A stretch of 64,000 nt of DNA, from positions 42,926 to 106,925 of the forward strand of contig CAYIZI010000001.1 in NCBI GenBank assembly GCA_964368135.1, read 5' to 3'. The notes under the pieces were generated by a model. The model did no database searches. It saw nothing but the letters and a program-made list of their open reading frames with translations, and was not told where the DNA came from. The stretch comes from an uncultured Candidatus Saccharibacteria bacterium (GTDB lineage Bacteria > Patescibacteriota > Minisyncoccia > 2-02-FULL-40-12). Shown here in pieces: positions 43,151 to 60,501 of this stretch (within the stretch, counting starts at the first letter, position 1; each line of letters starts with the position of its first letter). The position numbers and the translations under genes were made by a program.

Positions 43151-43159
43151 ATTTATTTA

Positions 43160-43690
43160 TTAGCTTTTAAAATCCGGCCAAGATGAATCTTTTTCAGAAA
43201 CATGCTCTACCGCTACCGGCCAATCAAAATTAAATTTCTTATCATTAAATCTAATTCCTTTTTCACATTCGGCCGTAAACGGCGCCGTATATAAATTTAT
43301 AAATTCAACATCGTCTCCCAGGGTTAAAAATCCGTGGGCAACGCCTTTAGGAACATACAGTGATTTCATATCTGAATCGCTAAGCTTAAAACCCTGCCAC
43401 TTCAGGTATGTCGGAGAGTTAGGTCTTACATCAACAATAACTTCATAGATAGAACCCCTGGTAACTCTGGTCAACTGGGCCATCTCTTGAGGTTTAATCT
43501 GATAATGGATTCCTCTGATTGTGCCTTTATTTTTTGTAAAAGAAATATAGCCCTGAACAATTTCATTGCTTATATTTACTTTTTTAAACTCATCCTTGCC
43601 GAATATGCGGGTTAAATTGCCTCGGTCATCCTCTCGCTTGGCAAGTTGAATTAAATACGAACCTTCAATGTTTGTTTTTATAAATTCCAT
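43160..43690 (-). CDS. dTDP/CDP-4-dehydro-6-deoxy-sugar 3,5-epimerase (RmlC-like cupin)
   Basis: RmlC cupin pattern ...RGIHYQ...YVPKGVAHGF... Confidence 0.75.
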   Translation of the reverse strand: MEFIKTNIEGSYLIQLAKREDDRGNLTRIFGKDEFKKVNISNEIVQGYISFTKNKGTIRGIHYQIKPQEMAQLTRVTRGSIYEVIVDVRPNSPTYLKWQGFKLSDSDMKSLYVPKGVAHGFLTLGDDVEFINLYTAPFTAECEKGIRFNDKKFNFDWPVAVEHVSEKDSSWPDFKS

Positions 43691-43691
43691 A

Positions 43692-44723: not shown

Positions 44724-44725
44724 AA

Positions 44726-45439: not shown

Positions 45440-45452
45440 ATCATTCATATAG

Positions 45453-46364
45453 TTAATTATTCTTACAAAAATCTTTGACGTAATTTATGTCTTCCTGGGA
45501 CAGCTTCGGCCAATACGAACTCACCAGCCACTTGCCGCCTAACATCACTGAATTACTGTTAAAAGCTTCCTGCGTCTTCAGATTGGACAGACCAATGGCG
45601 TGACCAAAACCGTGAATCATTTCTCTTATCAAGGCGGATTCTATTAATTTCCCTTCATCTGCTAAACTGCCTAAATAAACATTACTGTTGGCTGCATAGT
45701 CAAATAAGGCCGTAAAAATATTCAGCATAAAATGATCCACGGTTCCATTGCTATATATCTTTTGATACGAAACATCAGTATAATCATAATCTTCCCCATT
45801 CTTAAATTTAAAGGCCGGGTCAAGAATAAAGTTAACCGTATTTACGGTTCCTTGGTAATTATTGAATAAATCAATACCCAAAGCATCTTCCCACTGTTTT
45901 TCGGCATAACCGAGAAGCTCGTTAAGCCGCTGGCGGCTATAACCCAGTTCAAATAATCTCACATCAACATTCCCTAATTTGTAGGTTAGTTGAATTGAAC
46001 AATGAGCCGGAGGCGGCAGAGGCGTAGGCGTGGGAGTTGGAGTTGGGGTCGGAGTTGGAGTTGGGGTCGGTTTCGGAACTGGTTTTGGTTTTTGCGTAGA
46101 ACTTGGAGTAGAAACCGGCCCAATCGGCGATTCAGACGGTTCTGACGTAGCCGATGGACTTAAAATAGGAGTCGGCGTCGGAGTTGATTCTTCAAATAAT
46201 TGGGCAATGAGGGCCGCCGGGTTATTATCAGTATTCATTATCTTACTTAAACCAAAAGTAAATCCGACTGAAATAATCAATGCAAAAGCAGGAACTAATA
46301 CAGACAGTGGGATGAAACCTGACTTTATGCTTATTATTTTTTTGTTTTTGTTGGTTTTATTCAT
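45453..46364 (-). CDS. Membrane-anchored secreted protein with a Pro/Thr-repeat linker and a degenerate zincin-like domain
   Basis: N-terminal TM, KPKPVPKPTPTPTPTPTPTPTPTPLPPP linker, C-terminal REMIHGFGHAIGL resembling a metzincin motif without its first His. Confidence 0.5.
   Translation of the reverse strand: MNKTNKNKKIISIKSGFIPLSVLVPAFALIISVGFTFGLSKIMNTDNNPAALIAQLFEESTPTPTPILSPSATSEPSESPIGPVSTPSSTQKPKPVPKPTPTPTPTPTPTPTPTPLPPPAHCSIQLTYKLGNVDVRLFELGYSRQRLNELLGYAEKQWEDALGIDLFNNYQGTVNTVNFILDPAFKFKNGEDYDYTDVSYQKIYSNGTVDHFMLNIFTALFDYAANSNVYLGSLADEGKLIESALIREMIHGFGHAIGLSNLKTQEAFNSNSVMLGGKWLVSSYWPKLSQEDINYVKDFCKNN
46033..46068. repeat. Perfect 18-nt tandem duplication built from GGAGTT/GGGGTC hexamers; encodes the (TP)n linker
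   Basis: ggagttggagttggggtc x2, read directly; coding, not a CRISPR array. Confidence 0.7.
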
Positions 46365-46370
46365 ATTTTT

Positions 46371-49300: not shown

Positions 49301-51047
49301 GATATGTCTGCATATAGCCCTTAATCCACCTTGACCTCTGCCTTATCCAGTTCCAAACCTGACTATTTGCTTCTTCAAGAGTTATTGAATCAATAATCGC
49401 CGTGTTGAAACCCTGTTTAAATAACCGCACCCCCAAGTCGGCGTCTTCGGTAACGTTGAAGGGATCCCAACCCTTAAGATTCCTTAAGTCGGCGGTCCGG
49501 AAATGGTTGCTGGTGCCGCCAAGAGGAATTGAAGTATTAATTGACTGAAGACCCGGCAGAATGATTTCAAACCACAACGAGTACTCGGCCGTAAAAAGCC
49601 GGGTCAAAAGATTTTGATTGGTGTTATAATAATTGAGTTTTGCCTGAAGACATTTAACTTTTTCTGGCACTCTTTGAAAAGCCAAATAAGCTTTCTTAAG
49701 CTGCTGGGGTTCGGGCATATCTTCGGCGTCGTAAACGACAAGATACTCACCCTTGGCTGAATTAAGACCATAATTGCAGGCCTTGGGCTTGGTCTTAGGC
49801 AAAGAGTGAGGAACGATTACTATCCTTACGTAGCTTGGCAAATCTATTGACCTGGCAGTATCTATTGTCTCTAAGTCGTTTTCTTCTAAAAGCAGCTGGA
49901 CATCCAATTTATCCTTAGGCCACTCCAATTTGCTTATTGAATTTAAAAATTTTGGAAGAACCGCTGATTCCCGATAAAGCGGGCAGAGAATCGCATAAAC
50001 CGGCAGAGAACTTTCGTCTATCCGGGAAAGTTCCTCATCAGTAAAACTAAGTTCCGGAGGATTATGCAGACTTTTTGTGATAAGGAATAAATTAAACAAA
50101 ACGTCAAAAAAGTATAGAGAGCTTAAAACAGCCATTAAAGCTATGGCCGTATAGAGCGGGAAAAATAAAAATCCGGCAACAGCCAAAATAACGGATAGAA
50201 ATATTAAAAATTTCTGGCTGGCGGTAAATGTGATTAGGGCCGAGGTTTCACTGTCAAGATTAGAATGAGTAATGAACCTTCTGCCTTTATGGGCCATTCC
50301 GGCGCCGATCATACTTGATTCGTCTTGCGGCGGTATTTGAATCGGCTTTTTCTTTTTTAACTTGTTGGCCAACGCGTTAGTGCCTATTTCCCAACTGGCT
50401 TTTATGACATTGATTTTTGATTCACCGGAATGCCTCTTTTCAAAATCTATATTAACGGTGGCTATTTCATGGCCGGCGTATCTGGCGTTAACCAAGAATT
50501 CCAGATCAAAGGTCCACTGGGACGGATTAACTGCTATTTCCTTGGTTATCTGTTTTTTAAAAACTTTTAACCCTGACTGGACATCGCACTTAAGCCCGTG
50601 AAGAATCCGGCCAAAAACAAAATTAAAACCTTTGCTGGCCAGCTTTCTTAAGGGGCTTATGCCTTTATAACGTCTATTGGCCACAACTACGCCGGCGCCA
50701 TCTCTAATTTTTCTCACCATTTCCGGTATCGCTTCCGGCGGGTACTGCAGGTCAGCGTCAATCATCCCGACAGTGTCATACTTGGCATAATCAAAACCCT
50801 CAAGAATAGAAAAGGCCTTACCCTTTTTGCCTTTCTTCAAATGACAACTAATTGGATATTCGTCGGCCAGATTATTGGCAATCTTAACCGTATTATCGGT
50901 TGAGTGGTCATCTATTGTGACTATTTCATACTCAATACCGCCTTTTTTTAAAGCATTATCAATCCTCTTGACTAACTTCTGGATATTTCCTTCTTCATTA
51001 AAAGTAGGAATAATTATTGATACTTTTTCAGTGTTTTTGGCCTCCAT
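46371..51047 (-). CDS. 1558-aa multi-domain glycan-assembly fusion: GT2 (DPM1-like) + processive QxxRW GT2 + Wzx/MOP-like flippase domain + GT4
   Basis: aa 8-230 GT2 (IIIPTFNEE, DDHSTDN, DADLQYPP); aa ~345-715 cellulose-synthase-like GT2 (DAEDMP, QRSRWIKG, C-terminal TMs); aa ~755-1175 12-14 TM MOP-like; aa ~1195-1558 GT4 (E-x7-E: FMEGWGITTIEANACGTPIV). Confidence 0.75.
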   Translation of the reverse strand: MEAKNTEKVSIIIPTFNEEGNIQKLVKRIDNALKKGGIEYEIVTIDDHSTDNTVKIANNLADEYPISCHLKKGKKGKAFSILEGFDYAKYDTVGMIDADLQYPPEAIPEMVRKIRDGAGVVVANRRYKGISPLRKLASKGFNFVFGRILHGLKCDVQSGLKVFKKQITKEIAVNPSQWTFDLEFLVNARYAGHEIATVNIDFEKRHSGESKINVIKASWEIGTNALANKLKKKKPIQIPPQDESSMIGAGMAHKGRRFITHSNLDSETSALITFTASQKFLIFLSVILAVAGFLFFPLYTAIALMAVLSSLYFFDVLFNLFLITKSLHNPPELSFTDEELSRIDESSLPVYAILCPLYRESAVLPKFLNSISKLEWPKDKLDVQLLLEENDLETIDTARSIDLPSYVRIVIVPHSLPKTKPKACNYGLNSAKGEYLVVYDAEDMPEPQQLKKAYLAFQRVPEKVKCLQAKLNYYNTNQNLLTRLFTAEYSLWFEIILPGLQSINTSIPLGGTSNHFRTADLRNLKGWDPFNVTEDADLGVRLFKQGFNTAIIDSITLEEANSQVWNWIRQRSRWIKGYMQTYLVHMRKPMEFLKKSGIHTFLFQLNIGGKIVFMLINPILWFMTISYFALRSVVGPTIESIYPTPVFYIAVFSLVFGNFLYFYYYMIGCAKRGHWPIIKYVFLIPFYWFFMSIAAVMATYQLFIKPHFWEKTKHGLHLKKLKPLPVLGTIKSGPAPKPELTLNFIKKDSWLKKTTNKFLPLSLTENALSGAALMIAAMMFANFLNFLFNAFLGRVLSFEELSLVILVNTLWSVAAIFMGAVSSTVNHKTAHLAVEKGEGSALAFLKSTLNKAIPIALGISVMWIVSVSFLSNFFNISSQSILFMFTPVLTLGVIASANRGFLNGNLYFTSVAFVILFESVSKFIAAALFAWYGLNHLVYLSIPISIAVASMASVLAVSRHSEDFIQTKNHKFPGRFFYASILTLMSATIFLSIDIILVKHFLSPRLAGEYTLISLVGKMIYFLGSLPNIFMITLIGRDEGLKRNTKKTFELLVGSTVLLSLAGFIFLGPLGNLTVPILFGSKTLAILPYLNIYTLALTVFTISNSIVVYHLAKRQFIFPIISMTASLFMSIGIILNHGSVEEIVNVILWASIFGLGLVYLFHVLEGRLKFVWRGIIDLKDAFRPIETEAPMAKLGKRILIFNWRDTRHIYGGGAELYVHEIAKQWVKDGHQVTVFCGNDSYSKRREIIDGVEIIRRGGFYFVYLWAFIYYLTQFRGKYDIIVDCHNGIPFFTPIYSRKPIYCLIHHIHQEVFRHSLPKPLAKLAIFLEKDLMPIVYRNVKFITVSESSKKDIQSFGLGTKKGIEIVHPGVNSKNLTLGRKSPEPTILYLGRLKAYKSVDVLVRAFEKVIRQVDDARLVIVGSGEEENSLKRLASELNLNGKVVFRGKVSEKEKIELFQKAWVFVNPSFMEGWGITTIEANACGTPIVASDVPGLRDSVKNMETGRLVSYGNSDAFAESILTIIRDKDLRDRMSQEAVKWASNFDWSKTSKAFLSIISK

Positions 51048-51146: not shown

Positions 51147-51614
51147 TTAGAGGTTTGGCCTGAATTCAAGACGATGAAACTTATGGCCATTATACTGGCC
51201 TGGCTCATCCAGCAGTTGAAAGCCATTTTTTATGTAAAAATCTTTCACGCCGTACTCGTAAAAAGAAGTTGTCCGTAAAATTTTAAAGCCATTTTCCCGA
51301 GCAAATTGTTTGGCAAACTCAATTAGCCTTGAACCGACTCCCTTGGCCTGCCCCCCACTTGCGGGCAAGCGGGGGGCCTGAATATCTTTGGCCACAGCCA
51401 ATGTTTCAATATAAAGCATCTTGTTTCTTTCTCTTAAACTCATTACTCCGGTTGTTTTACCATTCTCTTCGCTTAAATAATACTCCCCTTTCTCAATTTG
51501 CTTCCTAATAAATTTTTCGGTCGTCCACACAAAATCAGGTATCTCTAAATAAAGAACTTGGGCTATTTCAACGACTCTTTCTACATCTTCAGAAACTGCT
51601 TTTCTTATACTCAT
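51147..51614 (-). CDS. GNAT-family N-acetyltransferase
   Basis: Acetyl-CoA motif QAKGVGSRLIEFAKQFA. Confidence 0.7.
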   Translation of the reverse strand: MSIRKAVSEDVERVVEIAQVLYLEIPDFVWTTEKFIRKQIEKGEYYLSEENGKTTGVMSLRERNKMLYIETLAVAKDIQAPRLPASGGQAKGVGSRLIEFAKQFARENGFKILRTTSFYEYGVKDFYIKNGFQLLDEPGQYNGHKFHRLEFRPNL

Positions 51615-52159
51615 TTCTTTAATCTATCCTTGAACTTTTTTCTGAATTTTTCCAGCTTCGGATTAATCACTGCCTGGCAATAAGGCGCCTCTGGATTATG
51701 GGAATAATAATCCTGATGATATTGTTCGGCCGGGTAAAATTTATCAAGCGGCACAATTTCGGTAACGATTGGTTTTTCAAATTCACCCGAATCACCCAAC
51801 CGCTTCTTTGACTCCTCGGCCAACCTCTTTTGTTCATCATCATAGTAAAAAATCATTGACCGATACTGATGACCCACATCCGGCCCCTGGCGGTTTACTT
51901 GGGTCGGATCATGAGTCGCCCAGAAAACTTCCAGTAAATCTGCATAAGAAATCTTTTCCGGGTCATAAGTTATCTGAATGGCTTCGGCATGGCCGGTTCG
52001 GCCGCCGGAAACTTTTTCGTAAGTTGGTTTTTCTTTACCGCCGCCAGCATAACCGTTCTCAACTAAAACTACGCCTTCAAGTTCCTCAAATATTGCCTCT
52101 CCGCACCAAAAACAGCCGGAGGCAAAAGTCGCTTTTTCAAAATTTTTATTTTCACTCAT
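51611..52159 (-). CDS. msrA: Peptide methionine sulfoxide reductase MsrA
   Basis: Active-site ATFASGCFWCGEA. Confidence 0.85.
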   Translation of the reverse strand: MSENKNFEKATFASGCFWCGEAIFEELEGVVLVENGYAGGGKEKPTYEKVSGGRTGHAEAIQITYDPEKISYADLLEVFWATHDPTQVNRQGPDVGHQYRSMIFYYDDEQKRLAEESKKRLGDSGEFEKPIVTEIVPLDKFYPAEQYHQDYYSHNPEAPYCQAVINPKLEKFRKKFKDRLKK

Positions 52160-52587
52160 TGTAAAAATTCTATCATGCCACCAATTCTAATTCCGTTCTT
52201 TTCGGTAAAACCGGCGTTGACTTCCAGAATATATAGGGCCGGCGCTCGCGGTTCAAATACTTCCGGAAACGAATCTGACTGAACATCAGAAGCAATGTCT
52301 ACCACCCGGTAATTTCCGTCCAGCCAAATCACATCAATCGGAAACTTCATATCTTTCATCCAGATGCCGTAGATGCCAGGTTTATCGTGGATAAAAAGAA
52401 GACCGGTGCTCTTATCTAAACTCTCACGGCCGGAAAGGCCTTTAGCTCTTTCGTCAGGCGTATCAGCTATTTCAATAGTGATATCAATATCCCTGACCCC
52501 TGCCATTTCACCTTTATTCTCGTTTCGGCTGAAAACATAAAATCCAAGCCCAATGATAATTACTATTATTAATAATAAAATCTTCAT
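52156..52587 (-). CDS. DUF192-domain protein (COG1430)
   Basis: Signal/TM then LLFIHDKPGIYGIWMKDMKFPIDVIWLDGNYRVV pattern; start trimmed to MKILLL at 52587. Confidence 0.55.
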   Translation of the reverse strand: MKILLLIIVIIIGLGFYVFSRNENKGEMAGVRDIDITIEIADTPDERAKGLSGRESLDKSTGLLFIHDKPGIYGIWMKDMKFPIDVIWLDGNYRVVDIASDVQSDSFPEVFEPRAPALYILEVNAGFTEKNGIRIGGMIEFLQ

Positions 52588-52630
52588 ATATCTTAGATTA
52601 TACCTATGAAATGGGATACTGAAAATTAGA

Positions 52631-52694
52631 ATCATAAAACCGCCTCTTGGGTGGTTTTATGATTTAGTTTACCCACTCATATATGAGTGAGGGG
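52631..52694 (-). terminator. Twin stem-loops downstream of the major pilin gene
   Basis: atcataaaaccgcc-tcttg-ggtggttttatgat (52631-52663, 14-bp stem with one G-U) then U-rich on the minus strand; second hairpin cactcat-at-atgagtg (52673-52688). Confidence 0.6.
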
Positions 52695-52702
52695 TTGCTC
52701 TC

Positions 52703-53179
52703 TTAACGAGTGACTTCGATTATTTGTCCAAGCTCAGCTGAAGGCGCACTAATTGTAACCCTTCCAGCTGAATCAACTTCTAAATCATAGCCAGTATCGT
52801 CTCCTACTGCTGATGTTGGATCTGTAGGAAATGACGGAACGTATGTTGGTGTAAGGCAAGAAAGATCAATATCTCCTGCCACGGCACCAGAAGTAACAAT
52901 ATCGACTGCCGAACCGGCAGCTGGAAGCGATGGACATGTATATGTAGTGCCGCCGATTGTGAATGAACCGCTGAAAATTCCTTTATTATCAGCAATCCTT
53001 TGGCCAACTGAGTTCAAAATAGTGTTAGCATTACTGGTTCTCTGGGTATTTCTGCCTTGGGCAAACTGTCTGGCTGGGTTTATGGCGATCAAGACAATAG
53101 TTGCTAAAATAGCAATAATCCCGATAACTACCAGAATTTCAATAAGGGTAAAGCCCCTATTTTTTCTTTGATTTTTCAT
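52703..53179 (-). CDS. Type IV major pilin (prepilin with class III signal peptide)
   Basis: MKNQRKNRG|FTLIEILVVIGIIAILATIVLIAI canonical prepilin leader and N-methylation domain. Confidence 0.8.
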   Translation of the reverse strand: MKNQRKNRGFTLIEILVVIGIIAILATIVLIAINPARQFAQGRNTQRTSNANTILNSVGQRIADNKGIFSGSFTIGGTTYTCPSLPAAGSAVDIVTSGAVAGDIDLSCLTPTYVPSFPTDPTSAVGDDTGYDLEVDSAGRVTISAPSAELGQIIEVTR

Positions 53180-53239
53180 AATCTCCTGATTTTTTAAACT
53201 ATATCAATTTATCGACCTGATTTTTAAAGATAAAGAGAG

Positions 53240-53266
53240 GTTATAATGGGATATGGGTCTTGTCAA
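53240..53266 (-). promoter_or_regulatory. Candidate sigma-70-type promoter of the major pilin gene
   Basis: Minus strand TTGACA (53266-53261) - 15 nt - TATAAC (53245-53240), then aggag SD before the ATG at 53179. Confidence 0.4.
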
Positions 53267-53269
53267 TAT

Positions 53270-53719
53270 TTATGGAAAATTTCCTATCTCTTCCCAAGAT
53301 TCAACTTCTATTTTGCCAAATGGTTTTGAAACAATTATTTCAAGATTAGTATAGGAACTTTTATTGCCGTCTTGAGGGTATTTGCCTTGAACTTGGATTG
53401 TCTTAGTCCCAGAGCCGGATATTGAATAAATAATACATGAATCATCACCAACCGGAATAGTTTCGCCAGGCGGCGAAAGCGAGTAATCATTAAATTCGTC
53501 ATCATTTAGCGCCTGTAATTTTAAAATCGCGGTGTCGGCGCAGGCCTCGGCCAAGCCAATGCTTTTTTCCTTAAACTCTGAATCAAGAACATTTATCCTG
53601 GCGAAAAAACTGCGAAAGCCCAAAGCAAAAGTAATAGTCATCAAAATAATGGCAATAATGACCGTAGAAATCAAAGCAATATAGCCGTTTTTATTTCCGG
53701 ATAAATTTGGTGGTCTCAT
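53270..53719 (-). CDS. Pilin-like protein with non-canonical N-terminal hydrophobic segment
   Basis: NKNGYIALISTVIIAIILMTITFALG hydrophobic N-terminus without Glu+5; lies in the pilin gene row. Confidence 0.4.
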   Translation of the reverse strand: MRPPNLSGNKNGYIALISTVIIAIILMTITFALGFRSFFARINVLDSEFKEKSIGLAEACADTAILKLQALNDDEFNDYSLSPPGETIPVGDDSCIIYSISGSGTKTIQVQGKYPQDGNKSSYTNLEIIVSKPFGKIEVESWEEIGNFP

Positions 53720-54176
53720 AATAAAAATCATTTAAGTAAAAGTTGGTCTTGACTGCTGGGGGCTGGCCAGTGGCTGAAGGAGGAATATACTCAAAGCTCA
53801 AAGTGGCGGCTTTTACGCTATCGCTGTCTAAGGCCAAAAAAACTCCTATCCCTGGATCAATCTCAATATTTTCGTTAACCAATCTAAATTTGACTCGTTG
53901 GGATAAACCATATTTATCAACTGACAGTTCATCCCCTTCTGGCGGGATAATTATTGGAGTTGGGTTTGATAAATCTATTCCAGTCAACGCCCAATTTATT
54001 TTCCGCAAAACAAAGTTGGCCTCGTCGCTGATTAAAACCTTAATGTTGGAACGGTCGGTTGCTTCAATAACTGAATAAACCGAAACAATCACTCCGGCCA
54101 TTAATAGAGAAAAAAGAGCTATATATATTAGCACTTCAATAATGGTAAATCCATTTTCGTGACTAAATTTAGACAT
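53691..54176 (-). CDS. Type IV minor pilin (prepilin-type N-terminal cleavage/methylation domain)
   Basis: ENG|FTIIEVLIYIALFSLLMAGV; start trimmed to MSKF at 54176. Confidence 0.65.
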   Translation of the reverse strand: MSKFSHENGFTIIEVLIYIALFSLLMAGVIVSVYSVIEATDRSNIKVLISDEANFVLRKINWALTGIDLSNPTPIIIPPEGDELSVDKYGLSQRVKFRLVNENIEIDPGIGVFLALDSDSVKAATLSFEYIPPSATGQPPAVKTNFYLNDFYYETTKFIRK

Positions 54177-54183
54177 CAGAAAA

Positions 54184-55785
54184 TCAATTGCAAACTGGTG
54201 ATGGTTCAATAATCCGCAGTTTGCTTTGTTGGTTAGTTACTGTGTAGATAACGTCGTTCTCATAAGCAAAGTTTTGCGGGTCTACTGAAAAGTTATAGGG
54301 ACAGGTATCCCATCTCTCAATATTGGCCGGATCACTTACATCTAAAACAAGAAAGGGGTCGTTGGGATCTCTTGTTGTAACAAAAGCTAACTGTCCTGAA
54401 ACTTTAATGCCGGTAATGCCCGCACCCTGGTTATAATTAAAAAAATCATTAAAGTTTACTGACCCAGGAGCAGAAGATAAGTCGTTAGTATCAACAACGT
54501 AAAAATCTCGGTCATTCCCTGGATTTGAACGTCCTATTCCAAGATAAATTTTATTTCCAATAACATATAAATCTCTCCCGTCTTTTGAACTTGCCGAACC
54601 GTCGGCTCTTTCCGCATCAAAGGTACCGGCAATAGTTATATTTAAAGGATTGGCTATATTAAGAACGATAATTTCCTCGTTATTAGAAGAAGTGGCAAGA
54701 TAGGCCCTATCCTCTCTTACTTCAATATCATTGATATTATGATCTACTTGGGTAGAGCCTGTATTCCCAAGGTGAACGGGGTTTGTTGGATCAGTTACAT
54801 CAAAAATGTGAAACTCCGAACCGCCAACTCTATGGGTACCTATATAAATGCGGTTATTGTAATAAGCAATGCTTCGTCCGCCGGGACAAGTAAAATTACA
54901 AGTTCCACTTACTCCGGGTAAAGACACAGAAGCAATTTGAATAGGCGCCGCGGGGTCAGTCACATCAATTACCTGGAGTTGGCCGCTGGCTTTTTCATTG
55001 CCGCTGCCACTGCCGTCATCCGGATCGTAAAAATCTCCGTGGATACTGGCCGCAAAAATATAACGTTTATTTAACGATTGAAAATCAACGGCCACTAAAT
55101 CAACAATCCCGTTTAGTTTTTTACCTGGTCCCCAATCCACCCCGATACTCCCTAAAAAAACTGGGTTTGAAGTATTAGCCGCATCATAAATAAATAGGTC
55201 ATCTAAATTTTCATTAGAATCATAGACCCCTAAGTAAACAATCTTATTCAGGACGGCAATACTTTCACCGTTAACAGTATTTATAATAATATTGTCGTGA
55301 TTGGTTACGGGATTCCTCCAATTATCATTTGACGGAGATATTATGGAACAATTACTGCCAGCATCAATAAAAGCTTTTAGACTGCCGATAATACTAGAAA
55401 TACTTATTGATTGAGGCCTGTTTTCCACATCCCAATCAATAGTACTTTTAATTTCTTTGACACAGGGAGAGATATCTAATACTTCTAAAGTTTTAGTGTA
55501 AATGTCAGTCGTAGTCGGAGTTGTAGAAATAATGGAGTTAAATTCTCCGACTGTACCACGAGATTGAGCTCGAGTATTCTCAAGTTCCTCTTGAGCAAAA
55601 TACAAAGCTTCCTGATTTGTCTCGGTGTCTATTTCGGTTGACTGACCGCCAAACAAAACCATTATCACCGCGGAAATCGTCAAAACGAAAATAAACATCG
55701 CAATCATAATTTCCATTGTGGTCAGACCGCTTTCTAACCCGCTCTGGCGCTTAAGTTTCTTAGTAATTGATCCGGCCTTGTTCAT
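54184..55785 (-). CDS. Large pilin-like protein: prepilin N-terminus fused to an LVIVD-repeat beta-propeller-like domain (candidate pilus tip adhesin)
   Basis: SG|LTTMEIMIAMFIFVLTI prepilin signal with Glu+5; repeated (D/N)(I/V)xV.... segments (AYLATSSNNEEIIVLNIANP, LAFVTTRDPNDPFLVLDVSDP) typical of LVIVD propellers; 533 aa. Confidence 0.6.
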   Translation of the reverse strand: MNKAGSITKKLKRQSGLESGLTTMEIMIAMFIFVLTISAVIMVLFGGQSTEIDTETNQEALYFAQEELENTRAQSRGTVGEFNSIISTTPTTTDIYTKTLEVLDISPCVKEIKSTIDWDVENRPQSISISSIIGSLKAFIDAGSNCSIISPSNDNWRNPVTNHDNIIINTVNGESIAVLNKIVYLGVYDSNENLDDLFIYDAANTSNPVFLGSIGVDWGPGKKLNGIVDLVAVDFQSLNKRYIFAASIHGDFYDPDDGSGSGNEKASGQLQVIDVTDPAAPIQIASVSLPGVSGTCNFTCPGGRSIAYYNNRIYIGTHRVGGSEFHIFDVTDPTNPVHLGNTGSTQVDHNINDIEVREDRAYLATSSNNEEIIVLNIANPLNITIAGTFDAERADGSASSKDGRDLYVIGNKIYLGIGRSNPGNDRDFYVVDTNDLSSAPGSVNFNDFFNYNQGAGITGIKVSGQLAFVTTRDPNDPFLVLDVSDPANIERWDTCPYNFSVDPQNFAYENDVIYTVTNQQSKLRIIEPSPVCN

Positions 55786-56233
55786 TGATGGTTATGGTTA
55801 AGGGAGGTTTACCCACGCTAATCAGAGTAATCTCAAGCGGCGCCGCCGCTACATTCCCAGTCAGCTGCTCAAAATTTATAATCCCGGACCAGGCTATCCC
55901 TAATCTTTCTATCGGGATACTTTCATTGCTTGGATCATTTGGAACGTAAACTGAACCTTCAAAAATTACAAGCTCTTTTTTAGCGTCATCATAATAAACG
56001 CTGTAAGACGACTGATTAATATTGCTGACGGCCTGATTCCTGGCTTTCTGCAAAATACTTATCACTATATCTTTGTCGTAATTAAAAGAATAGGTTCGGT
56101 AAAAATCCATACTCAAAAAAAGGCCGATGCCCATTAGCAGAACCAAAATACCGATGGCAACCAGAATTTCAATAATAGAGAATCCGTTACTACGCCGGCC
56201 GGCTAAATTAAGGCGAGAGGTTCCTGGTAATTT
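55760..56233 (-). CDS. Type IV minor pilin
   Basis: SNG|FSIIEILVAIGILVLLMGIGL; start trimmed to MKLPG at 56233. Confidence 0.65.
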   Translation of the reverse strand, partial: KLPGTSRLNLAGRRSNGFSIIEILVAIGILVLLMGIGLFLSMDFYRTYSFNYDKDIVISILQKARNQAVSNINQSSYSVYYDDAKKELVIFEGSVYVPNDPSNESIPIERLGIAWSGIINFEQLTGNVAAAPLEITLISVGKPPLTITINEQGRINY

Positions 56234-57278
56234 CATAAATCGGGGTAATGATTGAAACAGCAATAAAGCCGACAATCAAACCCATAAACACCATCAAAGC
56301 CGGCTCAAGGATCGTAGATAAATTCTTAGTCAGTTCGTCCATCTCGGCCTCATACATTTCGGCCAGATAAAGTAAAGTTTCATCCAAGCGGCCGGTTGAT
56401 TCGCCGATTTCAATCAAATGAGTCAAAATATGCGGGAAAAGGTCTGGCCTTCTTTCCATCTGACTGACTATTTTTTCGCCCTTAACCACGCACTTTGAAA
56501 TCTTCACAAGTTCGTTTCGGTAGACCAGATTAGTGGTCGTCTGCGAGGCAATTAAAAAAGCATTAATCACTCTGATGTCGCTTTTGATCAAAATTCCAAG
56601 GGTCCGGCAAATATTGGCCAAGTGATAATTCTTGAATATCGGACCAATCAAAGGCATTTTAAAGCTGGCCAGGTGCAGAAGATAGCGAAACTTATCCGAA
56701 GTCCTAAAAAAAACAATTAAACCAACCGCCAAAACAATAATCCCGGCAACTAAAAACAACCCATAGGCCTTCAAAAAATCAACGCTGGCAATCAGGGCCC
56801 GGGTAGTAAGGGGCAGGTTCACATTCAAACTGGCGAAAATCGGCAAAATCTTCGGGAAAATATAAAGAGTTAAAAGGCCGGCCAAACCTAAAGTAGCAAT
56901 AATTATAAAAATCGGATAAACCAGCGCGCCCATCACTTTACGCTGCAGGGCCTGCTTTTTCTTCATCTCATCGGCCAAATAGTTCAGGTTCTCGTCCAGA
57001 GTACCGCTCTCTTCGCCGACCCGAATCAAATTAATGGCCAGCTGGTCAAAGTTATGCCGAAACTTAGCCAAACTGCTTGAAAGATACTGACCGTTGGAAA
57101 CGTCTTTAATCACCTGGTCAAGAACCAATGACTTGGCGCCCGATGGACTTTGTTTTCTTAAAATATTTAAACTCTGGAGCAAGGGCACGCCGGCCTTAAC
57201 CAAAAAAGACAGCCGCTTGGCAAAAAGGGTTTTCTCTTTTACGGAAATTCTGGTAAATAACTCTCTTAATCTACTCAT
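56208..57278 (-). CDS. pilC: Type IV pilus assembly platform protein PilC (GspF family)
   Basis: Two T2SSF repeats, three TM helices; 356 aa. Confidence 0.8.
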   Translation of the reverse strand: MSRLRELFTRISVKEKTLFAKRLSFLVKAGVPLLQSLNILRKQSPSGAKSLVLDQVIKDVSNGQYLSSSLAKFRHNFDQLAINLIRVGEESGTLDENLNYLADEMKKKQALQRKVMGALVYPIFIIIATLGLAGLLTLYIFPKILPIFASLNVNLPLTTRALIASVDFLKAYGLFLVAGIIVLAVGLIVFFRTSDKFRYLLHLASFKMPLIGPIFKNYHLANICRTLGILIKSDIRVINAFLIASQTTTNLVYRNELVKISKCVVKGEKIVSQMERRPDLFPHILTHLIEIGESTGRLDETLLYLAEMYEAEMDELTKNLSTILEPALMVFMGLIVGFIAVSIITPIYEITRNLSP

Positions 57279-58503
57279 TGATCACTCTCAAAACTTCCTC
57301 CAGAGTGGTAATGCCTTCTTTGGCTTTCCTGATGCCGTCCTCAACTATAGTGGTCATCCCATTGCCGGAAGCGATTAACTTAATCTCATTGGCCGAAGCC
57401 CTCCTTAAAAAAGCTTCTCTGACCATATTGTCTACAACCATCACTTCAAATATGCCGACTCGGCCCTGAAAACCGGTCTCGCCGCATTTCTCACAGCCCC
57501 TGCCGTAATAAAACTGCCAGTTGGAATCTGAACCCAAAACCGAATTCTGGAAAAAATTTTCCAAGCTCTTCTTTTCGGCGTCGGTCAGCTTTCTTAAAGT
57601 TTTGCATTTGGGGCAAATTTTCCTGACCAATCTCTGGGCAATGGCCAAGTTGACCGTTGAAGCAACCAGGTACGGCTCAACTTTCATATCTAATAATCTG
57701 GGCAAAGTGGTGGCCGCGTCATTGGTATGCAAAGTGGACAAAAGCAGGTGGCCGGTTAAAGCGGTGTTGACAGCTAAGGCCGCGGTCTCAACATCTCTGA
57801 TTTCGCCAACCATTATTATATCGGGGTCCTGCCGTAAAATTGACCTTAGTCCGTTGGCAAAGTTTAAGCCGACCCGGGAATTAACCTGAATCTGTTCAAT
57901 TCCTTCAACCGCGTATTCAATCGGGTCCTCCACCGTGACAATTGAAACATCTTTGTTGTTTAAAAATTTTAAAACGGTGTAAAGAGTGGTGGTTTTGCCA
58001 GATCCGGTCGGTCCGGTGGCTAAAATCATGCCGTGACTTTTTTTGGCGGCCCTCAAAACCTTTTCCTTGTCTGACGGACTAAAGCCAAGTTTATCCAAAG
58101 TGTATTCTTCTTCCTTATCTGATAAAAGACGCAAAACCGCGTTCTCGCCGTAATAGGTTGGAGCTACGGAAACGCGAATATCAATCGGCGCCTGCCCGTC
58201 AAAAGCAATACTGAACCGGCCGTCTTGAGCAGTCTGGTGTTCGTCAGTCCTTAAGTTTGATAAAATTTTAATTCTGGAAACCACCTCTGATTTGATTTCT
58301 CTTGGAAAAGTAAAAAAATCCTGCAAAACGCCGTCAATTCTAAACCTGATTCTGACTCCCTTTGTGCCCGGGTCAATATGAATATCCGAAGCCCGCGAGT
58401 TGTGGGCGTATTCTATTAAGTTGTCCACCAGGCTGATTAAGGAAATCTGTTCAGAGTTTTGCTCAATTTCCCGCTCAATTTTATTTCTTAGTTCTGTTGA
58501 CAT
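57271..58503 (-). CDS. pilB: Type IV pilus assembly ATPase PilB/GspE (no N1 domain)
   Basis: Walker A GPTGSGKTTTL, Asp/His boxes, tetracysteine CPKC...CEKC zinc motif characteristic of PilB/GspE rather than PilT; 410 aa. Confidence 0.8.
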   Translation of the reverse strand: MSTELRNKIEREIEQNSEQISLISLVDNLIEYAHNSRASDIHIDPGTKGVRIRFRIDGVLQDFFTFPREIKSEVVSRIKILSNLRTDEHQTAQDGRFSIAFDGQAPIDIRVSVAPTYYGENAVLRLLSDKEEEYTLDKLGFSPSDKEKVLRAAKKSHGMILATGPTGSGKTTTLYTVLKFLNNKDVSIVTVEDPIEYAVEGIEQIQVNSRVGLNFANGLRSILRQDPDIIMVGEIRDVETAALAVNTALTGHLLLSTLHTNDAATTLPRLLDMKVEPYLVASTVNLAIAQRLVRKICPKCKTLRKLTDAEKKSLENFFQNSVLGSDSNWQFYYGRGCEKCGETGFQGRVGIFEVMVVDNMVREAFLRRASANEIKLIASGNGMTTIVEDGIRKAKEGITTLEEVLRVINE

Positions 58504-58583
58504 TAGAGAAAAATTAATCTTAATCGTATAATCTTATATCTTTCCTTTGAATATAGTCAACAAAAAAAGCCCAAAGAGCCATG

Positions 58584-58614
58584 GAACATAATAAATTCAG
58601 AAAAGGTGCGGGGT
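58584..58614 (+). repeat. 31-nt repeat copy A (gaacataataaattcagaaaaggtgcggggt), overlapping the 3' end of the DedA-like gene
   Basis: Identical to 59430-59460. Confidence 0.7.
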
Positions 58615-59181
58615 GTATAGGCCAATAAACGCAGCCAGGGTGTTAAAAACGATATTGCCTAAAGTCATCGGAATCATCAGCCGCCAGTAAGGATAGTGAA
58701 TAAAACCAAGGGGCATGACCACCAAATCATCAGGCAGAGGGATAAAAGCGCCGTAGCTGAAAATGGCCAGACTGGCCAGCCACTTGGGATGAGACAAAGA
58801 CCATTCATAAGCCCGGTCAATGGTTTTTTGAATTCTTGAAGGGATAATTTCCCGGCCATGATATGCAATAACATAAGAAGTTGAATCACCCAAGAAAAGG
58901 CCGATGCCGGCCACAAAACCCAAAAGAAATGGGTTTAACCCGCCGGCGGCAAAAGTCATCACAAAGAGATAATAAGGAATCGGAACAAAGGTTGAGATGC
59001 CGCCCAAGAAAGCCAAAACAAAGGTAATCAAATAGCCGTTTCGGACGCCCAGAATCTCAATAATGTCAGCCGGCGGAATCCGGTAAATAAAAACTGTCCA
59101 GGCGACAAAAAGAGCAATCAGGATTAAAAAAGGAAATTGGGCTTTACTAACTATCCCCCGCACCTTTTCTGAATAGGTCAA
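58597..59181 (-). CDS. DedA/VTT-domain family membrane protein (YqaA-like)
   Basis: GLFLGDSTSYVIAYHG DedA-type motif, 5-6 TM; both its TTG start region and its last codons are encoded by copies of the 31-nt repeat. Confidence 0.55.
   Translation of the reverse strand: MTYSEKVRGIVSKAQFPFLILIALFVAWTVFIYRIPPADIIEILGVRNGYLITFVLAFLGGISTFVPIPYYLFVMTFAAGGLNPFLLGFVAGIGLFLGDSTSYVIAYHGREIIPSRIQKTIDRAYEWSLSHPKWLASLAIFSYGAFIPLPDDLVVMPLGFIHYPYWRLMIPMTLGNIVFNTLAAFIGLYTPHLF
59155..59174 (-). repeat. Inverted partial copy B of the 31-nt repeat (ccccgcaccttttctgaat), at the GIY-YIG stop / DedA start
   Basis: Reverse complement matches attcagaaaaggtgcgggg of copies A and C (19-20 nt). Confidence 0.6.
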
Positions 59182-59435
59182 GACGACAAACTGCCGAGTA
59201 TTCTTCTCTTAAGCTGAGAATATACTTTACCGAACTGTTTCAGTTTTTTCTCACGGTTTCTGACGTCTTGACCGTTTAGATAACCTTCACAATAAACTAA
59301 CTTCCAAGGAATGAAAGCTTTAGTCGACCGATTATATCCTAAATTATGTTCTCTTATCCTTTTTAAAATATTAGTTGTTATGCCAATATATAATTTCTTG
59401 TTTTTATCGCTTTTCAATAAATAGACATAGAACAT
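59178..59435 (-). CDS. Small GIY-YIG nuclease-family protein (COG2827/YhbQ-like)
   Basis: MFYVYLLKSDKNKKLYIGITTNILKRIREHNLGYNRSTKAFIPWKLVYCE; 85 aa; the N-terminal 110 codons of the tracked ORF overlap the upstream gene out of frame and were trimmed. Confidence 0.7.
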   Translation of the reverse strand: MFYVYLLKSDKNKKLYIGITTNILKRIREHNLGYNRSTKAFIPWKLVYCEGYLNGQDVRNREKKLKQFGKVYSQLKRRILGSLSS

Positions 59436-59460
59436 AATAAATTCAGAAAAGGTGCGGGGT
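59430..59460 (+). repeat. 31-nt repeat copy C, between the membrane-protein stop (59464) and the GIY-YIG start (59435)
   Basis: Identical to 58584-58614. Confidence 0.7.
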
Positions 59461-59463
59461 TCA

Positions 59464-60501
59464 CTATTTGTTTTGATTCTTGAAAGACGGATAGCGGTCT
59501 GGGTCAATGGTTCGGCTGAAGCAAGTTCTTTCAGCGTCATGGAGCCAGCTTTCTTCAGTAATGCCAGGGTAAGGATAATAAAGCTCGCGGGGGGCCAAAG
59601 GCACTGGTTTTGCTCCGCTCTTTTCCGGCTCCTGCTTGTTTGAGGTCTTAAAAGTGGCGCAAAGCTCAAACTGCAAAGTACCGCGAACTCGGTATTCATA
59701 CGAGTCCCCTGTTTCCGGGTCAGCCGGCGGGATGAAGCCACGGATATCGTCGCGAAGCTGATCAAGATTTTGAGGCAATGTTTCTTTGGCCTGCCAAAAG
59801 TTTATAATTTCATTCTGAATCGCCTGTAGATCCGAAATTCTCCGCTCATCAAATCTCTTCAAGCGCTGGGCAATTGGCGAACCGGCCGTAACAAAGCCGA
59901 TGACGATGAAAAAAATGCCAGCCAGGGAAACCAACCAAACGAACCATCTCATTTTCGGGTCTTTAGCGGCCGGAACTTTCCGCCGGATATTCCACAAGTA
60001 ATAGGTAAACACCGCTAAAGCAATAACCAGAACGGTCAAAATCTTAAGCACAAATTGAGTGGTTAAATCTCCATTAAGATAGCGATAAATAAGAGCGATT
60101 AAATCAGCGACAATAATGATGGCGGCAACAAAAAGCGTAAAATGCAAAAGCCATTTCCTGACTTTTAATTCTTTTTTCTCGGGATTCCGTTCAAGGTCTT
60201 TCTGAAGATAGGAGTTATACCAAAGATACAAAGGGAAAACCACGATCAGGGTAGCCAAAGGCCATCTGATGGCCTGGCGGTTATAAAAATCGTAGCTTAA
60301 AACATCGGGGAAATATATATCAATCAAACCGAAAATTAAAACACCAAAAGAAATTACCAGGACATAAAGGCCGATAATGACCAAGAGTTGGCCAAACACG
60401 TCTTTGCTCGTCGAAGGTTCCGCCCCCGACGTAAGTCGGGGTTGCGGAATCGCTGTCGGCCCGGTTTTTGCAGAATCAGTCATTGTTTTAAATTCTACCA
60501 A
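59464..60501 (-). CDS. Hypothetical polytopic membrane protein
   Basis: 345 aa with ~6 TM helices and a C-terminal soluble domain; no family recognised. Confidence 0.45.
   Translation of the reverse strand: MVEFKTMTDSAKTGPTAIPQPRLTSGAEPSTSKDVFGQLLVIIGLYVLVISFGVLIFGLIDIYFPDVLSYDFYNRQAIRWPLATLIVVFPLYLWYNSYLQKDLERNPEKKELKVRKWLLHFTLFVAAIIIVADLIALIYRYLNGDLTTQFVLKILTVLVIALAVFTYYLWNIRRKVPAAKDPKMRWFVWLVSLAGIFFIVIGFVTAGSPIAQRLKRFDERRISDLQAIQNEIINFWQAKETLPQNLDQLRDDIRGFIPPADPETGDSYEYRVRGTLQFELCATFKTSNKQEPEKSGAKPVPLAPRELYYPYPGITEESWLHDAERTCFSRTIDPDRYPSFKNQNK

What the first reader, a model, noticed from the sequence alone, without database searches (positions are those of the whole stretch)
54184..55785. 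Pilin fused to an LVIVD-type beta-propeller: candidate pilus-tip adhesin
A bona fide class III prepilin signal (G|LTTME, hydrophobic helix) is followed by ~480 residues with multiple D/N-x-hydrophobic-V strands (...IIVLNIANP, ...FLVLDVSDP, ...LQVIDVTDP, ...FHIFDVTDP) typical of LVIVD/propeller repeats. Such a protein would be incorporated into the pilus through its N-terminal helix and would display a propeller, playing a PilY1- or tip-adhesin-like role in host attachment.
Basis: partly seen in the sequence, partly recalled or inferred. Interest (0 to 1): 0.65.

Follow-up and report, generated by a model that had tools for sequence, protein, structure and literature searches.

The report
Pilus subunit carrying a propeller head
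This gene from an ultrasmall (Patescibacteria) bacterium encodes a type IV pilus subunit whose outer end is a seven-bladed propeller, most likely a tip-mounted attachment device. This protein design has already been catalogued, and a similar one has been tested in a related group of bacteria.

Summary
ORF 54184-55785 (-) encodes 533 aa:
- a 20-aa basic leader;
- the prepilin site G20|LTTME25 followed by a hydrophobic helix;
- a small GspI/PilV-like pilin head;
- a seven-bladed LVIVD beta-propeller (aa 160-527).

Supporting results:
- Pfam LVIVD passes its cut-off.
- The isolated N-terminal module matches minor pseudopilins first.
- G(-1) and E(+5) are at least 90% conserved in 48 homologues.

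The gene is second of four minor-pilin genes, between pilB/pilC and the major pilin gene. That order recurs in 46-49 of 53 Patescibacteria species genomes.

A tip-adhesin role is inferred, not shown. It rests on four points:
- the precedent of Saccharibacteria PilX2;
- an acidic propeller (pI 4.3), which argues against general DNA binding;
- more variable loops on the assumed top face;
- a clear recombination mosaic, in which the closest operon relative has a 37%-identical propeller between about 90-100%-identical flanks.

Novelty is modest. Pilin+LVIVD architectures (30 proteins) are listed in Raynaud et al. 2021.

Seen in passing, and more novel: mobile GIY-YIG nuclease genes inserted in frame exactly at the prepilin cleavage-site codons in related operons.

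The parts
54184..55785 (-). Whole gene: modular minor pilin, 533 aa (prepilin leader + GspI/PilV-like pilin module + 7-bladed LVIVD beta-propeller)
   Evidence: ORF. Pfam LVIVD above cut-off. AF2 model pLDDT 87.1. About 100 full-length homologues.
55726..55785 (-). Leader peptide, aa 1-20 (MNKAGSITKKLKRQSGLESG), basic, ending in Gly(-1)
   Evidence: Sequence. G20 is at least 90% conserved in the family. Low pLDDT, as expected for a leader.
55711..55728 (-). Prepilin cleavage motif G20|L21-T-T-M-E25 (Gly -1, Glu +5)
   Evidence: The family profile aligns in register with the Geobacter PilA prepilin.
55561..55725 (-). Alpha1 helix of the mature pilin (aa 21-75). The hydrophobic N-terminal half is the presumed filament-assembly interface.
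   Evidence: Hydropathy. Continuous helix 20-75 in both models.
55336..55560 (-). Pilin head: antiparallel beta-sheet (aa 91-134) plus linker. Contains invariant W118 and the conserved Cys108/Cys146 pair, a possible disulfide.
54205..55308 (-). Seven-bladed beta-propeller, aa 160-527. The N-terminal strand 160-162 closes blade 7. LVIVD-type strands start at aa 196, 269, 324, 371, 427, 477 and 522.
57271..58503 (-). PilB-type assembly ATPase (T2SSE), first gene of the operon
   Evidence: Pfam T2SSE, 410 bits
56208..57278 (-). PilC-type platform protein (T2SSF)
   Evidence: Pfam T2SSF, 172 bits
55760..56275 (-). Minor pilin 1 (G|FSIIE), at the GspH/FimU position. Its 3' end overlaps the target's start by 26 nt.
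   Evidence: Pfam N_methyl above cut-off. Weak ComGD/GspH-type hits.
53691..54209 (-). Minor pilin 3 (G|FTIIE), at the GspJ/PilW position
   Evidence: Pfam N_methyl, 28.7 bits. Weak GspI/GspJ hits.
53270..53731 (-). Minor pilin 4 (NG|YIALIS, no Glu at +5), at the GspK/PilX position
   Evidence: Sequence. No family hit. Absence of E5 is the hallmark of GspK/PilX-type cap subunits (established knowledge).
52703..53179 (-). Presumed major pilin (RG|FTLIE), last gene of the pilus operon
   Evidence: Pfam N_methyl, 37.8 bits. TIGR02532, 33 bits.

Best explanation
The gene encodes a modular minor type IV pilin of a Patescibacteria (Yanofskybacteria-like) pilus.

The steps that follow are inferred from how type IV pilins generally behave. 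The basic 20-aa leader holds the protein N-in in the membrane. A prepilin peptidase cuts after Gly20. The mature protein (L21...) uses its hydrophobic alpha1 helix and Glu5 to dock with the three other minor pilins encoded beside it. These sit at the GspH-, GspJ- and GspK-like positions, and the target occupies the GspI/PilV position. Together the four form the priming complex that ends up at the pilus tip.

The C-terminus of the small pilin head continues directly into a seven-bladed LVIVD beta-propeller. The propeller would therefore be displayed at the distal end of the filament.

The propeller most likely acts as the ligand-binding (adhesin) head. It would recognise a surface structure of the host or partner cell, probably through its variable D-A and B-C loop face.

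The propeller coding part is exchanged between lineages by recombination within conserved flanks, as expected of a specificity determinant.

Shown here: gene, motifs, fold, family conservation, operon position, mosaicism. Inferred: cleavage, tip location, adhesion, nature of the ligand.
For: Prepilin signal:
- G(-1), E(+5) and a hydrophobic helix are present.
- G20 and E25 are at least 90% conserved and W118 is invariant in 48 homologues.
- The family N-terminal profile matches the Geobacter PilA prepilin in register (E 7e-4).
- 15 of 33 members hit Pfam N_methyl at E <= 0.1.

Pilin fold:
- The model has helix 20-75 and a beta-sheet at 91-134.

Propeller:
- Pfam LVIVD is above its cut-off.
- There are seven blades.

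Operon:
- The order pilB-pilC-pilin-TARGET-pilin-pilin(no E5)-major pilin is seen here and in L001-L004 and L006.
- Of 53 species genomes, 46 have pilB and 49 have pilC directly upstream.

Specificity-determinant signature:
- The closest operon (L005) has PilB 88%, flanking minor pilins 88% and target alpha1 95% identity, but the propeller is only 37% identical.
- More distant operons (PilB 67-70%) have 68-78%-identical propellers.

Further points:
- On the assumed top face, loops are less conserved and more length-variable than strands and C-D loops.
- Some relatives add C-terminal Ig-like Big_3_5 domains, typical of adhesins.
- A natural experiment supports leader removal: in homologue P0006 a ~95-aa GIY-YIG domain sits in frame immediately before ...LTG|FSTLE. 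This is tolerable if the leader is cut off.
- Functional precedent: the propeller-bearing pilin PilX2 of TM7x is needed for efficient host binding but not for filament extrusion or competence (PMC11623550).
Against: - No experiment exists for this family.
- The Pfam and TIGRFAM prepilin HMMs do not hit this particular sequence. Residue +1 is Leu and the motif is degenerate.
- No prepilin peptidase, PilT or PilMNO gene was found in the 64-kb window. Cleavage and retraction therefore cannot be supported locally.
- No ligand-binding site could be identified. The nearly invariant propeller residues (Q269, Y314, E324, AYLAT 361-365) look structural or repeat-related.
- Outside the L005 mosaic, the propeller is the best-conserved part of the minor-pilin set. 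That fits a conserved function (a priming or structural role, or a conserved ligand) at least as well as a rapidly evolving adhesin.
- Tip location is by analogy only.
- The top/bottom loop assignment uses the WD40 convention from memory and was not checked on coordinates.
Confidence: 0.6

Rival explanations
1. DNA-receptor tip subunit of a competence pilus. The pilus serves DNA uptake, on which Patescibacteria may depend for nucleotides, and the propeller captures DNA at the tip, as proposed for ComZ of Thermus or ComP-type pilins.
For: - Weak N-terminal similarity to ComGE-type competence minor pilins.
- Thermus competence pilins are among the structural matches of the pilin module.
- DprA is encoded in the window at 25967-27103.
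Against: - The propeller is strongly acidic: pI 4.34 and net charge -25 here, with a family median pI of 4.4 and range 4.05-5.65. This is unlike known electropositive DNA-binding pilins.
- The YncE match is no better than matches to generic WD40 propellers.
- In TM7x the propeller-pilin pilus did not contribute to competence.
- Module swapping between lineages is not expected for a sequence-unspecific DNA receptor.
Confidence: 0.12
2. Structural or priming subunit only. The propeller acts, like part of PilY1's role, as a plug or primer that nucleates and stabilises the minor-pilin complex or controls extension and retraction, without itself binding an external ligand.
For: - The gene occupies a fixed position inside the minor-pilin cassette in nearly all operons.
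- In non-mosaic comparisons the propeller is as conserved as PilB (68-78% against 67-70%) and far more conserved than the other minor pilins (39-58%).
- The PilY1 precedent for priming (PMC7541494, cited from the listing).
Against: - A mosaic with a 37%-identical propeller in an otherwise ~90%-identical cassette shows the module can be replaced wholesale without co-changing the partner pilins. This argues that its main contacts are external.
- Variable top-face loops and added Ig-like domains in relatives point outward.
- TM7x lacking pilX2 still extrudes pili.
Confidence: 0.15
3. Tip-delivered enzyme. The propeller is a catalytic module, for example a metal-dependent hydrolase or lyase acting on the host envelope, rather than a passive binder.
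For: - The best Foldseek hit and the best PDB sequence hit is the seven-bladed phosphotriesterase Sb-PTE (5hrm), which shares LVIVD-like strands.
- Raynaud et al. list peptidase-bearing modular pilins.
Against: - No conserved His/Asp/Glu cluster exists. Among 48 homologues the only nearly invariant charged residue in the propeller is E324, and no His is conserved. Sb-PTE needs a binuclear metal centre with several His and carboxylate ligands (from memory).
- Sequence similarity to 5hrm is marginal (E 0.008) and limited to repeat strands.
Confidence: 0.05
4. Not a pilin. The protein is an ordinary surface propeller held in the membrane by an uncleaved N-terminal transmembrane anchor that merely lies in a pilus operon.
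For: - The prepilin HMMs do not hit this sequence.
- No prepilin peptidase gene was found in the window.
- TM7x PilX2 is likewise not predicted to carry a PilD signal.
Against: - G(-1) and E(+5) are conserved in at least 90% of homologues, which an anchor would not require.
- The fold is a 56-residue alpha1 plus a pilin-type sheet whose top structural matches are GspI-class pseudopilins.
- The gene holds the second position of a four-gene minor-pilin set.
- Relatives tolerate a 95-aa domain inserted immediately before the G|F site.
Confidence: 0.06

Closest known systems
PilX2 of Nanosynbacter lyticus TM7x (Saccharibacteria), Grossman et al. 2024, PMC11623550
   Same: It is also a Patescibacteria type IV pilus protein. 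It has an N-terminal pilin-like helix and head followed by a C-terminal seven-bladed beta-propeller. It is encoded in a pilin locus and is proposed to be the tip adhesin. Its deletion halves host binding but leaves pili and competence intact.
   Different: - The PilX2 propeller is built of RCC1 repeats. No RCC1 hit appears here at E<=1, and the repeat here is LVIVD.
- PilX2 is reported to lack a predicted PilD signal, whereas this family conserves G(-1)/E(+5).
- The lineage differs (Parcubacteria-type rather than Saccharibacteria).
- No experiments exist for this protein.
Pilin + LVIVD architectures (IPR012902-IPR013211 x1-13) in Dataset S1 of Raynaud et al. 2021, PNAS (PMC8179133)
   Same: The domain architecture is the same: a prepilin N-terminal motif followed by LVIVD repeats. 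30 proteins are listed, including a Candidatus Falkowbacteria protein singled out in the text. IPR013211 = LVIVD is confirmed in PMC10210494.
   Different: There the architecture is only catalogued, as a 'motif of unknown function'. No fold, operon position, pilin-module class, distribution or mosaicism was described. This particular protein would escape that survey because its N-terminal motif is below the HMM threshold.
PilY1 / PilC tip adhesins of T4aP (Pseudomonas, Neisseria, Myxococcus)
   Same: A beta-propeller is presented at the pilus tip together with a set of four minor pilins, and it has roles in adhesion and priming (PMC7541494, PMC8179133).
   Different: - PilY1 is not a pilin. 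It has no class III signal or alpha1 and rides on the minor pilins non-covalently.
- Its propeller is the PF05567/IPR008707 family, which does not hit here.
- Here the propeller is covalently fused to the GspI/PilV-position pilin.
Characterised modular pilins: S. sanguinis PilB (vWA) and PilC (lectin), ETEC CofB, Thermus ComZ
   Same: A small pilin module carries a bulky effector module joined by a short linker and presumed to be exposed at the tip. S. sanguinis PilB (7b7p) and PilA (7o5y) appear among the structural matches of the pilin module. The concept is described.
   Different: The effector module here is an LVIVD propeller, for which no ligand is known. The organisms are monoderm-like ultrasmall episymbionts.
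Minor pseudopilins GspI/EpsI/XcpV (T2SS) and PilV (T4aP)
Sb-PTE phosphotriesterase of Sphingobium sp. TCM1 (PDB 5hrm)
   Same: It is a seven-bladed propeller with LVIVD-like strand motifs. It is the best Foldseek hit (E 5.7e-11, TM about 0.5) and the best PDB sequence hit.
   Different: It is an enzyme with a binuclear metal centre. No conserved metal-ligand set exists in this family. It has no pilin module.

Membership tests
Type IV pilin / class III (prepilin) signal peptide proteins | Short basic leader ending in Gly(-1), Glu at +5 of the mature protein, followed by ~20 hydrophobic residues | tested here: met
   G20|LTTME25 plus the hydrophobic run 26-46. G20 and E25 are at least 90% conserved in 48 homologues.
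Type IV pilin / class III (prepilin) signal peptide proteins | Match to the curated N-terminal methylation-motif models (Pfam PF07963, TIGR02532) | tested here: not met
   No hit for this sequence at E<=1. 15 of 33 homologous N-termini do hit PF07963 at E <= 0.1, and the family profile matches the Geobacter PilA prepilin (E 7e-4).
Type IV pilin / class III (prepilin) signal peptide proteins | Pilin fold: long N-terminal alpha1 packed on an antiparallel beta-sheet | tested here: met
Type IV pilin / class III (prepilin) signal peptide proteins | Encoded with type IV filament machinery (ATPase, platform protein, other pilins) | tested here: met
   pilB, pilC and four other prepilin-type genes lie in one minus-strand cluster. 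The arrangement is conserved in 46-49 of 53 species genomes.
Type IV pilin / class III (prepilin) signal peptide proteins | Cleavage and N-methylation by a prepilin peptidase, and incorporation into filaments | not testable with these tools
   No prepilin peptidase was found in the window by Pfam scans of about 46 ORFs or by a motif regex. Biochemistry is needed.
LVIVD repeat beta-propellers (Pfam PF08309 / IPR013211) | HMM score above the gathering threshold | tested here: met
   26.2 bits against 20.2, E 4.9e-6, stretch 459-488. Most homologues carry precomputed PF08309 hits.
LVIVD repeat beta-propellers (Pfam PF08309 / IPR013211) | Tandem ~45-aa four-stranded repeats forming a propeller | tested here: met
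Modular pilins sensu Raynaud et al. 2021 | N-terminal pilin module fused through a short linker to a distinct functional module | tested here: met
   Pilin module aa 21-~150, linker ~141-159, propeller 160-527. The same architecture is listed in their Dataset S1.
PilY1 / PilC family | C-terminal PilY1-type propeller (Pfam PF05567 / IPR008707) | tested here: not met
PilY1 / PilC family | Non-pilin protein (Sec-type signal) that associates with the minor pilins | tested here: not met
   This protein has its own prepilin-type N-terminus and pilin module.
RCC1-propeller pilins (TM7x PilX2 type) | Propeller built of RCC1 repeats (PF00415 / IPR000408) | tested here: not met
   No RCC1 family appears among the Pfam hits at E<=1. 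PilX2 is described.
GspI / PilV class of core minor (pseudo)pilins | Match to the equivalog models (TIGR01707 gspI, TIGR02523 pilV) | tested here: not met
Choice-of-anchor B (TIGR04312) LVIVD surface proteins | Score above the NCBIfam cut-off | tested here: not met
   33.3 bits against a cut-off of 100, partial match 326-490.

The most novel reading that the evidence does not exclude
The LVIVD-propeller pilin is the host-range determinant of Parcubacteria-type episymbionts. Discrete propeller 'types' would recognise different host-surface glycans or proteins. They would be swapped as cassettes between lineages by homologous recombination in the near-identical flanks (the alpha1 codons upstream, the next minor-pilin gene downstream), much as phage tail-fibre tips are exchanged. 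If so, propeller type could predict the hosts of uncultivated Patescibacteria from sequence alone.
Probability: 0.3. Interest if true: 0.65.

Novelty: new member of a known kind. Interest (0 to 1): 0.4.

Why it matters
Most Patescibacteria are uncultivated and their hosts are unknown. Type IV pili are their best-supported host-contact organelle. This work identifies a widespread pilin family: at least 201 clusters at 50% identity match the pilin-module profile at E<=1e-30, and 53 species genomes were recovered with a single search pattern. The family carries a dedicated propeller head at a fixed position in the pilus operon. That gives a concrete, clonable candidate for the host-recognition step in the large Parcubacteria/Paceibacteria radiation. 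The module swapping seen here suggests a route by which host range could change. The finding extends a precedent (TM7x PilX2) rather than opening a new category.

Tried and rejected
- Foldseek against afdb50 was not available on the machine.
- The search for related loci with the 48-sequence alignment failed for lack of a conserved stretch. It was repeated with 13 closer sequences.
- The promoter and terminator scan of 51500-59500 gave counts no higher than in shuffles, so it was not used.
- A regex search for a prepilin peptidase motif found nothing in the window. Pfam scans of about 46 window ORFs found no PilD, PilT or PilMNO.
- PDB profile searches with the whole-family alignment gave only marginal hits.
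- I considered and rejected filing the protein as PilY1 (no PF05567 hit), as choice-of-anchor B (33 of 100 bits), or as an Sb-PTE-like metalloenzyme (no conserved His cluster).
- I considered whether the in-frame GIY-YIG 'leaders' in relatives are gene-calling artefacts. The DNA is a continuous ORF in three genes, with sharp and identical element boundaries. An internal TTG/CTG start just upstream of the G|F site cannot be excluded.
- The window's own leader tail (KKLKRQSGLESG|L) loosely resembles the element's tail (NRLKRSLSLTG|F). I judged this too weak to interpret.
Full report
**The gene and its motifs**

The minus-strand ORF 54184..55785 (533 aa, ATG start) is present as described. Its N-terminus reads MNKAGSITKKLKRQSGLESG|LTTMEIMIAMFIFVLTISAVIMVLFGG. 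That is a 20-residue basic leader ending in Gly, Glu at +5 of the presumed mature protein, and a ~21-residue hydrophobic stretch.

Three more degenerate copies at aa 196, 427 and 522 complete one per blade. Pfam LVIVD (PF08309) scores 26.2 bits against a gathering cut-off of 20.2. Beta_propel and NCBIfam choice-of-anchor B give sub-threshold matches.

The curated prepilin models (PF07963, TIGR02532) do not hit this sequence. There are only weak ComGE, PilV and GspH N-terminal similarities.

**Is the N-terminus a prepilin signal?**

The protein has about 100 full-length homologues of roughly 460-570 aa, nearly all from Patescibacteria. The closest named ones are Candidatus Yanofskybacteria.

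- In an alignment of 48 homologues, Gly(-1) and Glu(+5) are at least 90% conserved, and a Trp in the head domain is invariant.
- A profile of the first ~150 residues matches the Geobacter PilA prepilin in register through leader, G|F and alpha1 (E 7e-4).
- 15 of 33 family N-termini individually hit Pfam N_methyl at E <= 0.1.

The motif is therefore genuine for the family, and this member is a degenerate version (Leu at +1).

**Fold**

AlphaFold2 with the 48-sequence alignment gives a confident model (pLDDT 87.1, pTM 0.85). It has a 56-residue helix (20-75), a beta-sheet (91-134), and then 28 strands arranged as seven four-stranded blades (aa 160-527). The N-terminal strand 160-162 closes the last blade.

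- Foldseek's best hit is the Sphingobium phosphotriesterase 5hrm. This is also the best, though marginal, PDB sequence hit, and it shares LVIVD-like strands.

The propeller is about 370 aa.

**Genomic context**

The gene lies in a tight minus-strand cluster, with overlaps consistent with one operon:
- pilB-type ATPase (57271-58503);
- pilC-type platform protein (56208-57278);
- a prepilin (55760-56275, G|FSIIE);
- the target;
- a prepilin (53691-54209, G|FTIIE);
- a 153-aa protein with G|YIALIS and no Glu5 (53270-53731), the hallmark of GspK/PilX-type cap subunits;
- a canonical pilin (52703-53179, G|FTLIE).

The order mimics gspH-I-J-K and fimU-pilV-W-X, with the target at the I/V position. 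This agrees with its structural matches.

The same order is seen in contigs of Jorgensenbacteria, Pacebacteria and others. In a scan of one genome per species, 53 loci were found with a single peptide pattern. They span Yanofsky-, Nomura-, Lipton-, Kaiser-, Sung-, Zambryski-, Giovannoni-, Vogel-, Taylor- and Colwellbacteria, Paceibacteria and others. Many are generically labelled 'uncultured Candidatus Saccharibacteria'. Of these 53 loci:
- 46 have pilB directly upstream;
- 49 have pilC directly upstream;
- 40 show a strict prepilin regex in the same ORF.

A profile of the pilin module alone retrieves 201 clusters (50% identity) at E<=1e-30 and 2803 at E<=1e-10. Most are about 500 aa long. The longer ones add C-terminal Ig-like Big_3_5 domains behind the LVIVD propeller.

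No prepilin peptidase, PilT or PilMNO gene was found in the window.

**Evidence bearing on function**

1. The propeller is strongly acidic: pI 4.34 and net charge -25 here, with a family median pI of 4.4. This argues against non-specific DNA binding.

2. No conserved His/Asp/Glu cluster exists. This argues against an Sb-PTE-like metalloenzyme.

3. Loops on the conventionally 'top' face (B-C, D-A) are less conserved (0.43-0.44 against 0.54-0.55) and more length-variable than strands and C-D loops. The face assignment is from memory and was not checked on coordinates.

4. The propeller part is mosaic.
   - The closest operon (L005) shares 88% PilB, 88% of each flanking minor pilin and 95% of the target's alpha1, with the first 65 residues identical. 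It shares only 37% of the propeller.
   - At the DNA level, identity rises to 94-100% at window 55986-55587, collapses to about 50-65% over 55586-54201, and returns to 95% at 54102-54003.
   - Conversely, operons with only 67-70% PilB identity carry 68-78%-identical propellers.
   - The head-plus-propeller coding part has therefore been exchanged by recombination between conserved flanks. This behaviour is typical of specificity determinants.
   - Outside that event, the propeller is the best-conserved part of the minor-pilin set, so it is under purifying selection within a 'type'.

**Comparison with what is known**

- Raynaud et al. (PMC8179133) defined modular pilins. Their Dataset S1 lists IPR012902-IPR013211 architectures for 30 proteins (8+8+7+4+1+1+1), calling IPR013211 a motif of unknown function. 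IPR013211 is the LVIVD repeat (PMC10210494). The architecture is therefore already catalogued, but it is uncharacterised.
- Grossman et al. (PMC11623550) showed that PilX2 of Saccharibacteria TM7x is needed for efficient host binding and competition but not for pilus extrusion or competence. PilX2 is a pilin-like protein with a seven-bladed RCC1 propeller.
- PilY1 is the classical propeller at T4aP tips, but it is not a pilin and belongs to a different propeller family. No PF05567 hit is found here.
- I found no paper linking LVIVD to pilins functionally.

**Verdict**

- The protein is a modular minor pilin: a GspI/PilV-like module plus a seven-bladed LVIVD propeller. I hold this with high confidence (about 0.9).
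- It most likely acts as a tip-displayed adhesin (about 0.55-0.6).
- It is a new member of a known kind, not a new category.
- The added value here is the fold, the pilin-module class, the fixed operon position across the radiation, and the module-swapping signature.

**Seen in passing**

In the Yanofskybacteria relative L007, three consecutive minor-pilin genes, including the target's orthologue P0006, each carry an in-frame ~95-aa GIY-YIG nuclease domain immediately before the cleavage site (...KNRLKRSL(P/S)LTG|F(T/S)..E).

The three copies share sharp boundaries. The element begins inside a first G-F-T(-P-L-E) site and ends by regenerating T-G|F-T. The leaders upstream and the pilin sequences downstream are unrelated. 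Two copies are 98.8% identical.

At least 23 clusters from several Patescibacteria lineages (including Komeilibacteria and Lloydbacteria), Omnitrophica and others show the same GIY-YIG...LTG|FTLIE-pilin fusion, on GspG-like, DUF1559-type, PilV-like, PilX-like and lectin-bearing pilins.

This looks like a mobile nuclease gene that targets the conserved prepilin cleavage-site codons and is removed from the host protein by prepilin peptidase. I found no description of it. It also gives indirect support for leader cleavage in this family.

Noticed in passing
L007 6264-9633 (three genes). Proteins P0259-P0321. Not in the window.: Mobile GIY-YIG nuclease genes are inserted in frame exactly at the prepilin cleavage-site codons.
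- In a Yanofskybacteria relative, three consecutive minor-pilin genes (including the orthologue of the target) read leader-GFTPLETT-[~86-aa GIY-YIG]-...KRSL(P/S)LTG|F(T/S)..E-pilin.
- The element boundaries are identical in all three, with a G-F-T site on both sides. The flanks are unrelated, and two copies are 98.8% identical.
- At least 23 further clusters from several phyla show the same fusion on diverse pilin types.
- Prepilin peptidase would release a cytoplasmic nuclease and a normal pilin. This would be a protein-level analogue of intein or intron removal for a homing endonuclease.
- No literature was found.
   Followed up: partly
window 54003-55986 compared with L005 (CAYHZG010000029.1): There is a recombination mosaic. 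Identity to L005 is 94-100% at 55986-55587 and 95% at 54102-54003, but only about 50-65% across the pilin-head and propeller coding part (55586-54201). The background in pilB and pilC is about 70-88%. The window's propeller is closer (68-78% aa) to operons that are otherwise more distant.
   Followed up: yes
window 58504-59463, with the GIY-YIG ORF at about 59178-59435 (-): A free-standing ~85-aa YhbQ-like GIY-YIG gene (MFYVYLLKSDKNKKLY...) and a VTT-domain membrane protein gene (58597-59181) lie in a ~960-bp segment upstream of pilB. This segment is absent from the otherwise collinear L005. A GIY-YIG gene also sits inside the pilin operon of L001 (8079-8861). GIY-YIG genes therefore recur around these pilus operons.
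   Followed up: partly
window 38757-51047 (-): A large glycan-synthesis locus lies a few genes downstream of the pilus operon (past the DUF192, MsrA and GNAT genes). It includes a 1558-aa single ORF (46371-51047) that fuses two GT2 modules and a GT4/GT1 module. It also has a dTDP-4-dehydrorhamnose 3,5-epimerase, an NDP-sugar epimerase/dehydratase, a nucleotidyl transferase and further GT2/GT4 genes. This is possibly a rhamnose-containing cell-wall polymer. Rhamnose glycans were implicated in TM7x host binding.
   Followed up: no
window 12935-14404 (+): A PMT-family protein O-mannosyltransferase (PF02366 + PMT_4TMC) is encoded here. It is a candidate for glycosylating surface proteins such as pilins.
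   Followed up: no
window 25967-27103 (-) and 24137-25960 (-): DprA (DNA-processing protein A, a competence marker) lies directly upstream of topoisomerase I. This is relevant to the rival idea that the pilus serves DNA uptake.
   Followed up: no
Proteins P0167, P0241, P0163 and P0240; loci L016, L035 and L037: Longer family members (about 660-1073 aa) keep the same pilin module and, in most of those scanned, the LVIVD propeller. They add one to four C-terminal Ig-like Big_3_5 domains, which looks like an adhesin-style extension.
   Followed up: partly
window 34329-38764 (-): Three large adjacent ORFs lie here: 523 aa and 541 aa with no Pfam hit, and 416 aa with only a CarboxypepD_reg-like domain. 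They may be further surface proteins and are uncharacterised.
   Followed up: no
window 55726-55770 (leader of the target): The leader tail KKLKRQSGLESG|L, shared only with P0009, differs from the family's usual MKA.LTGK.K.G leader. It loosely resembles the GIY-YIG element tail NRLKRSLSLTG|F. This could be a footprint of a lost insertion or could be coincidence.
   Followed up: no
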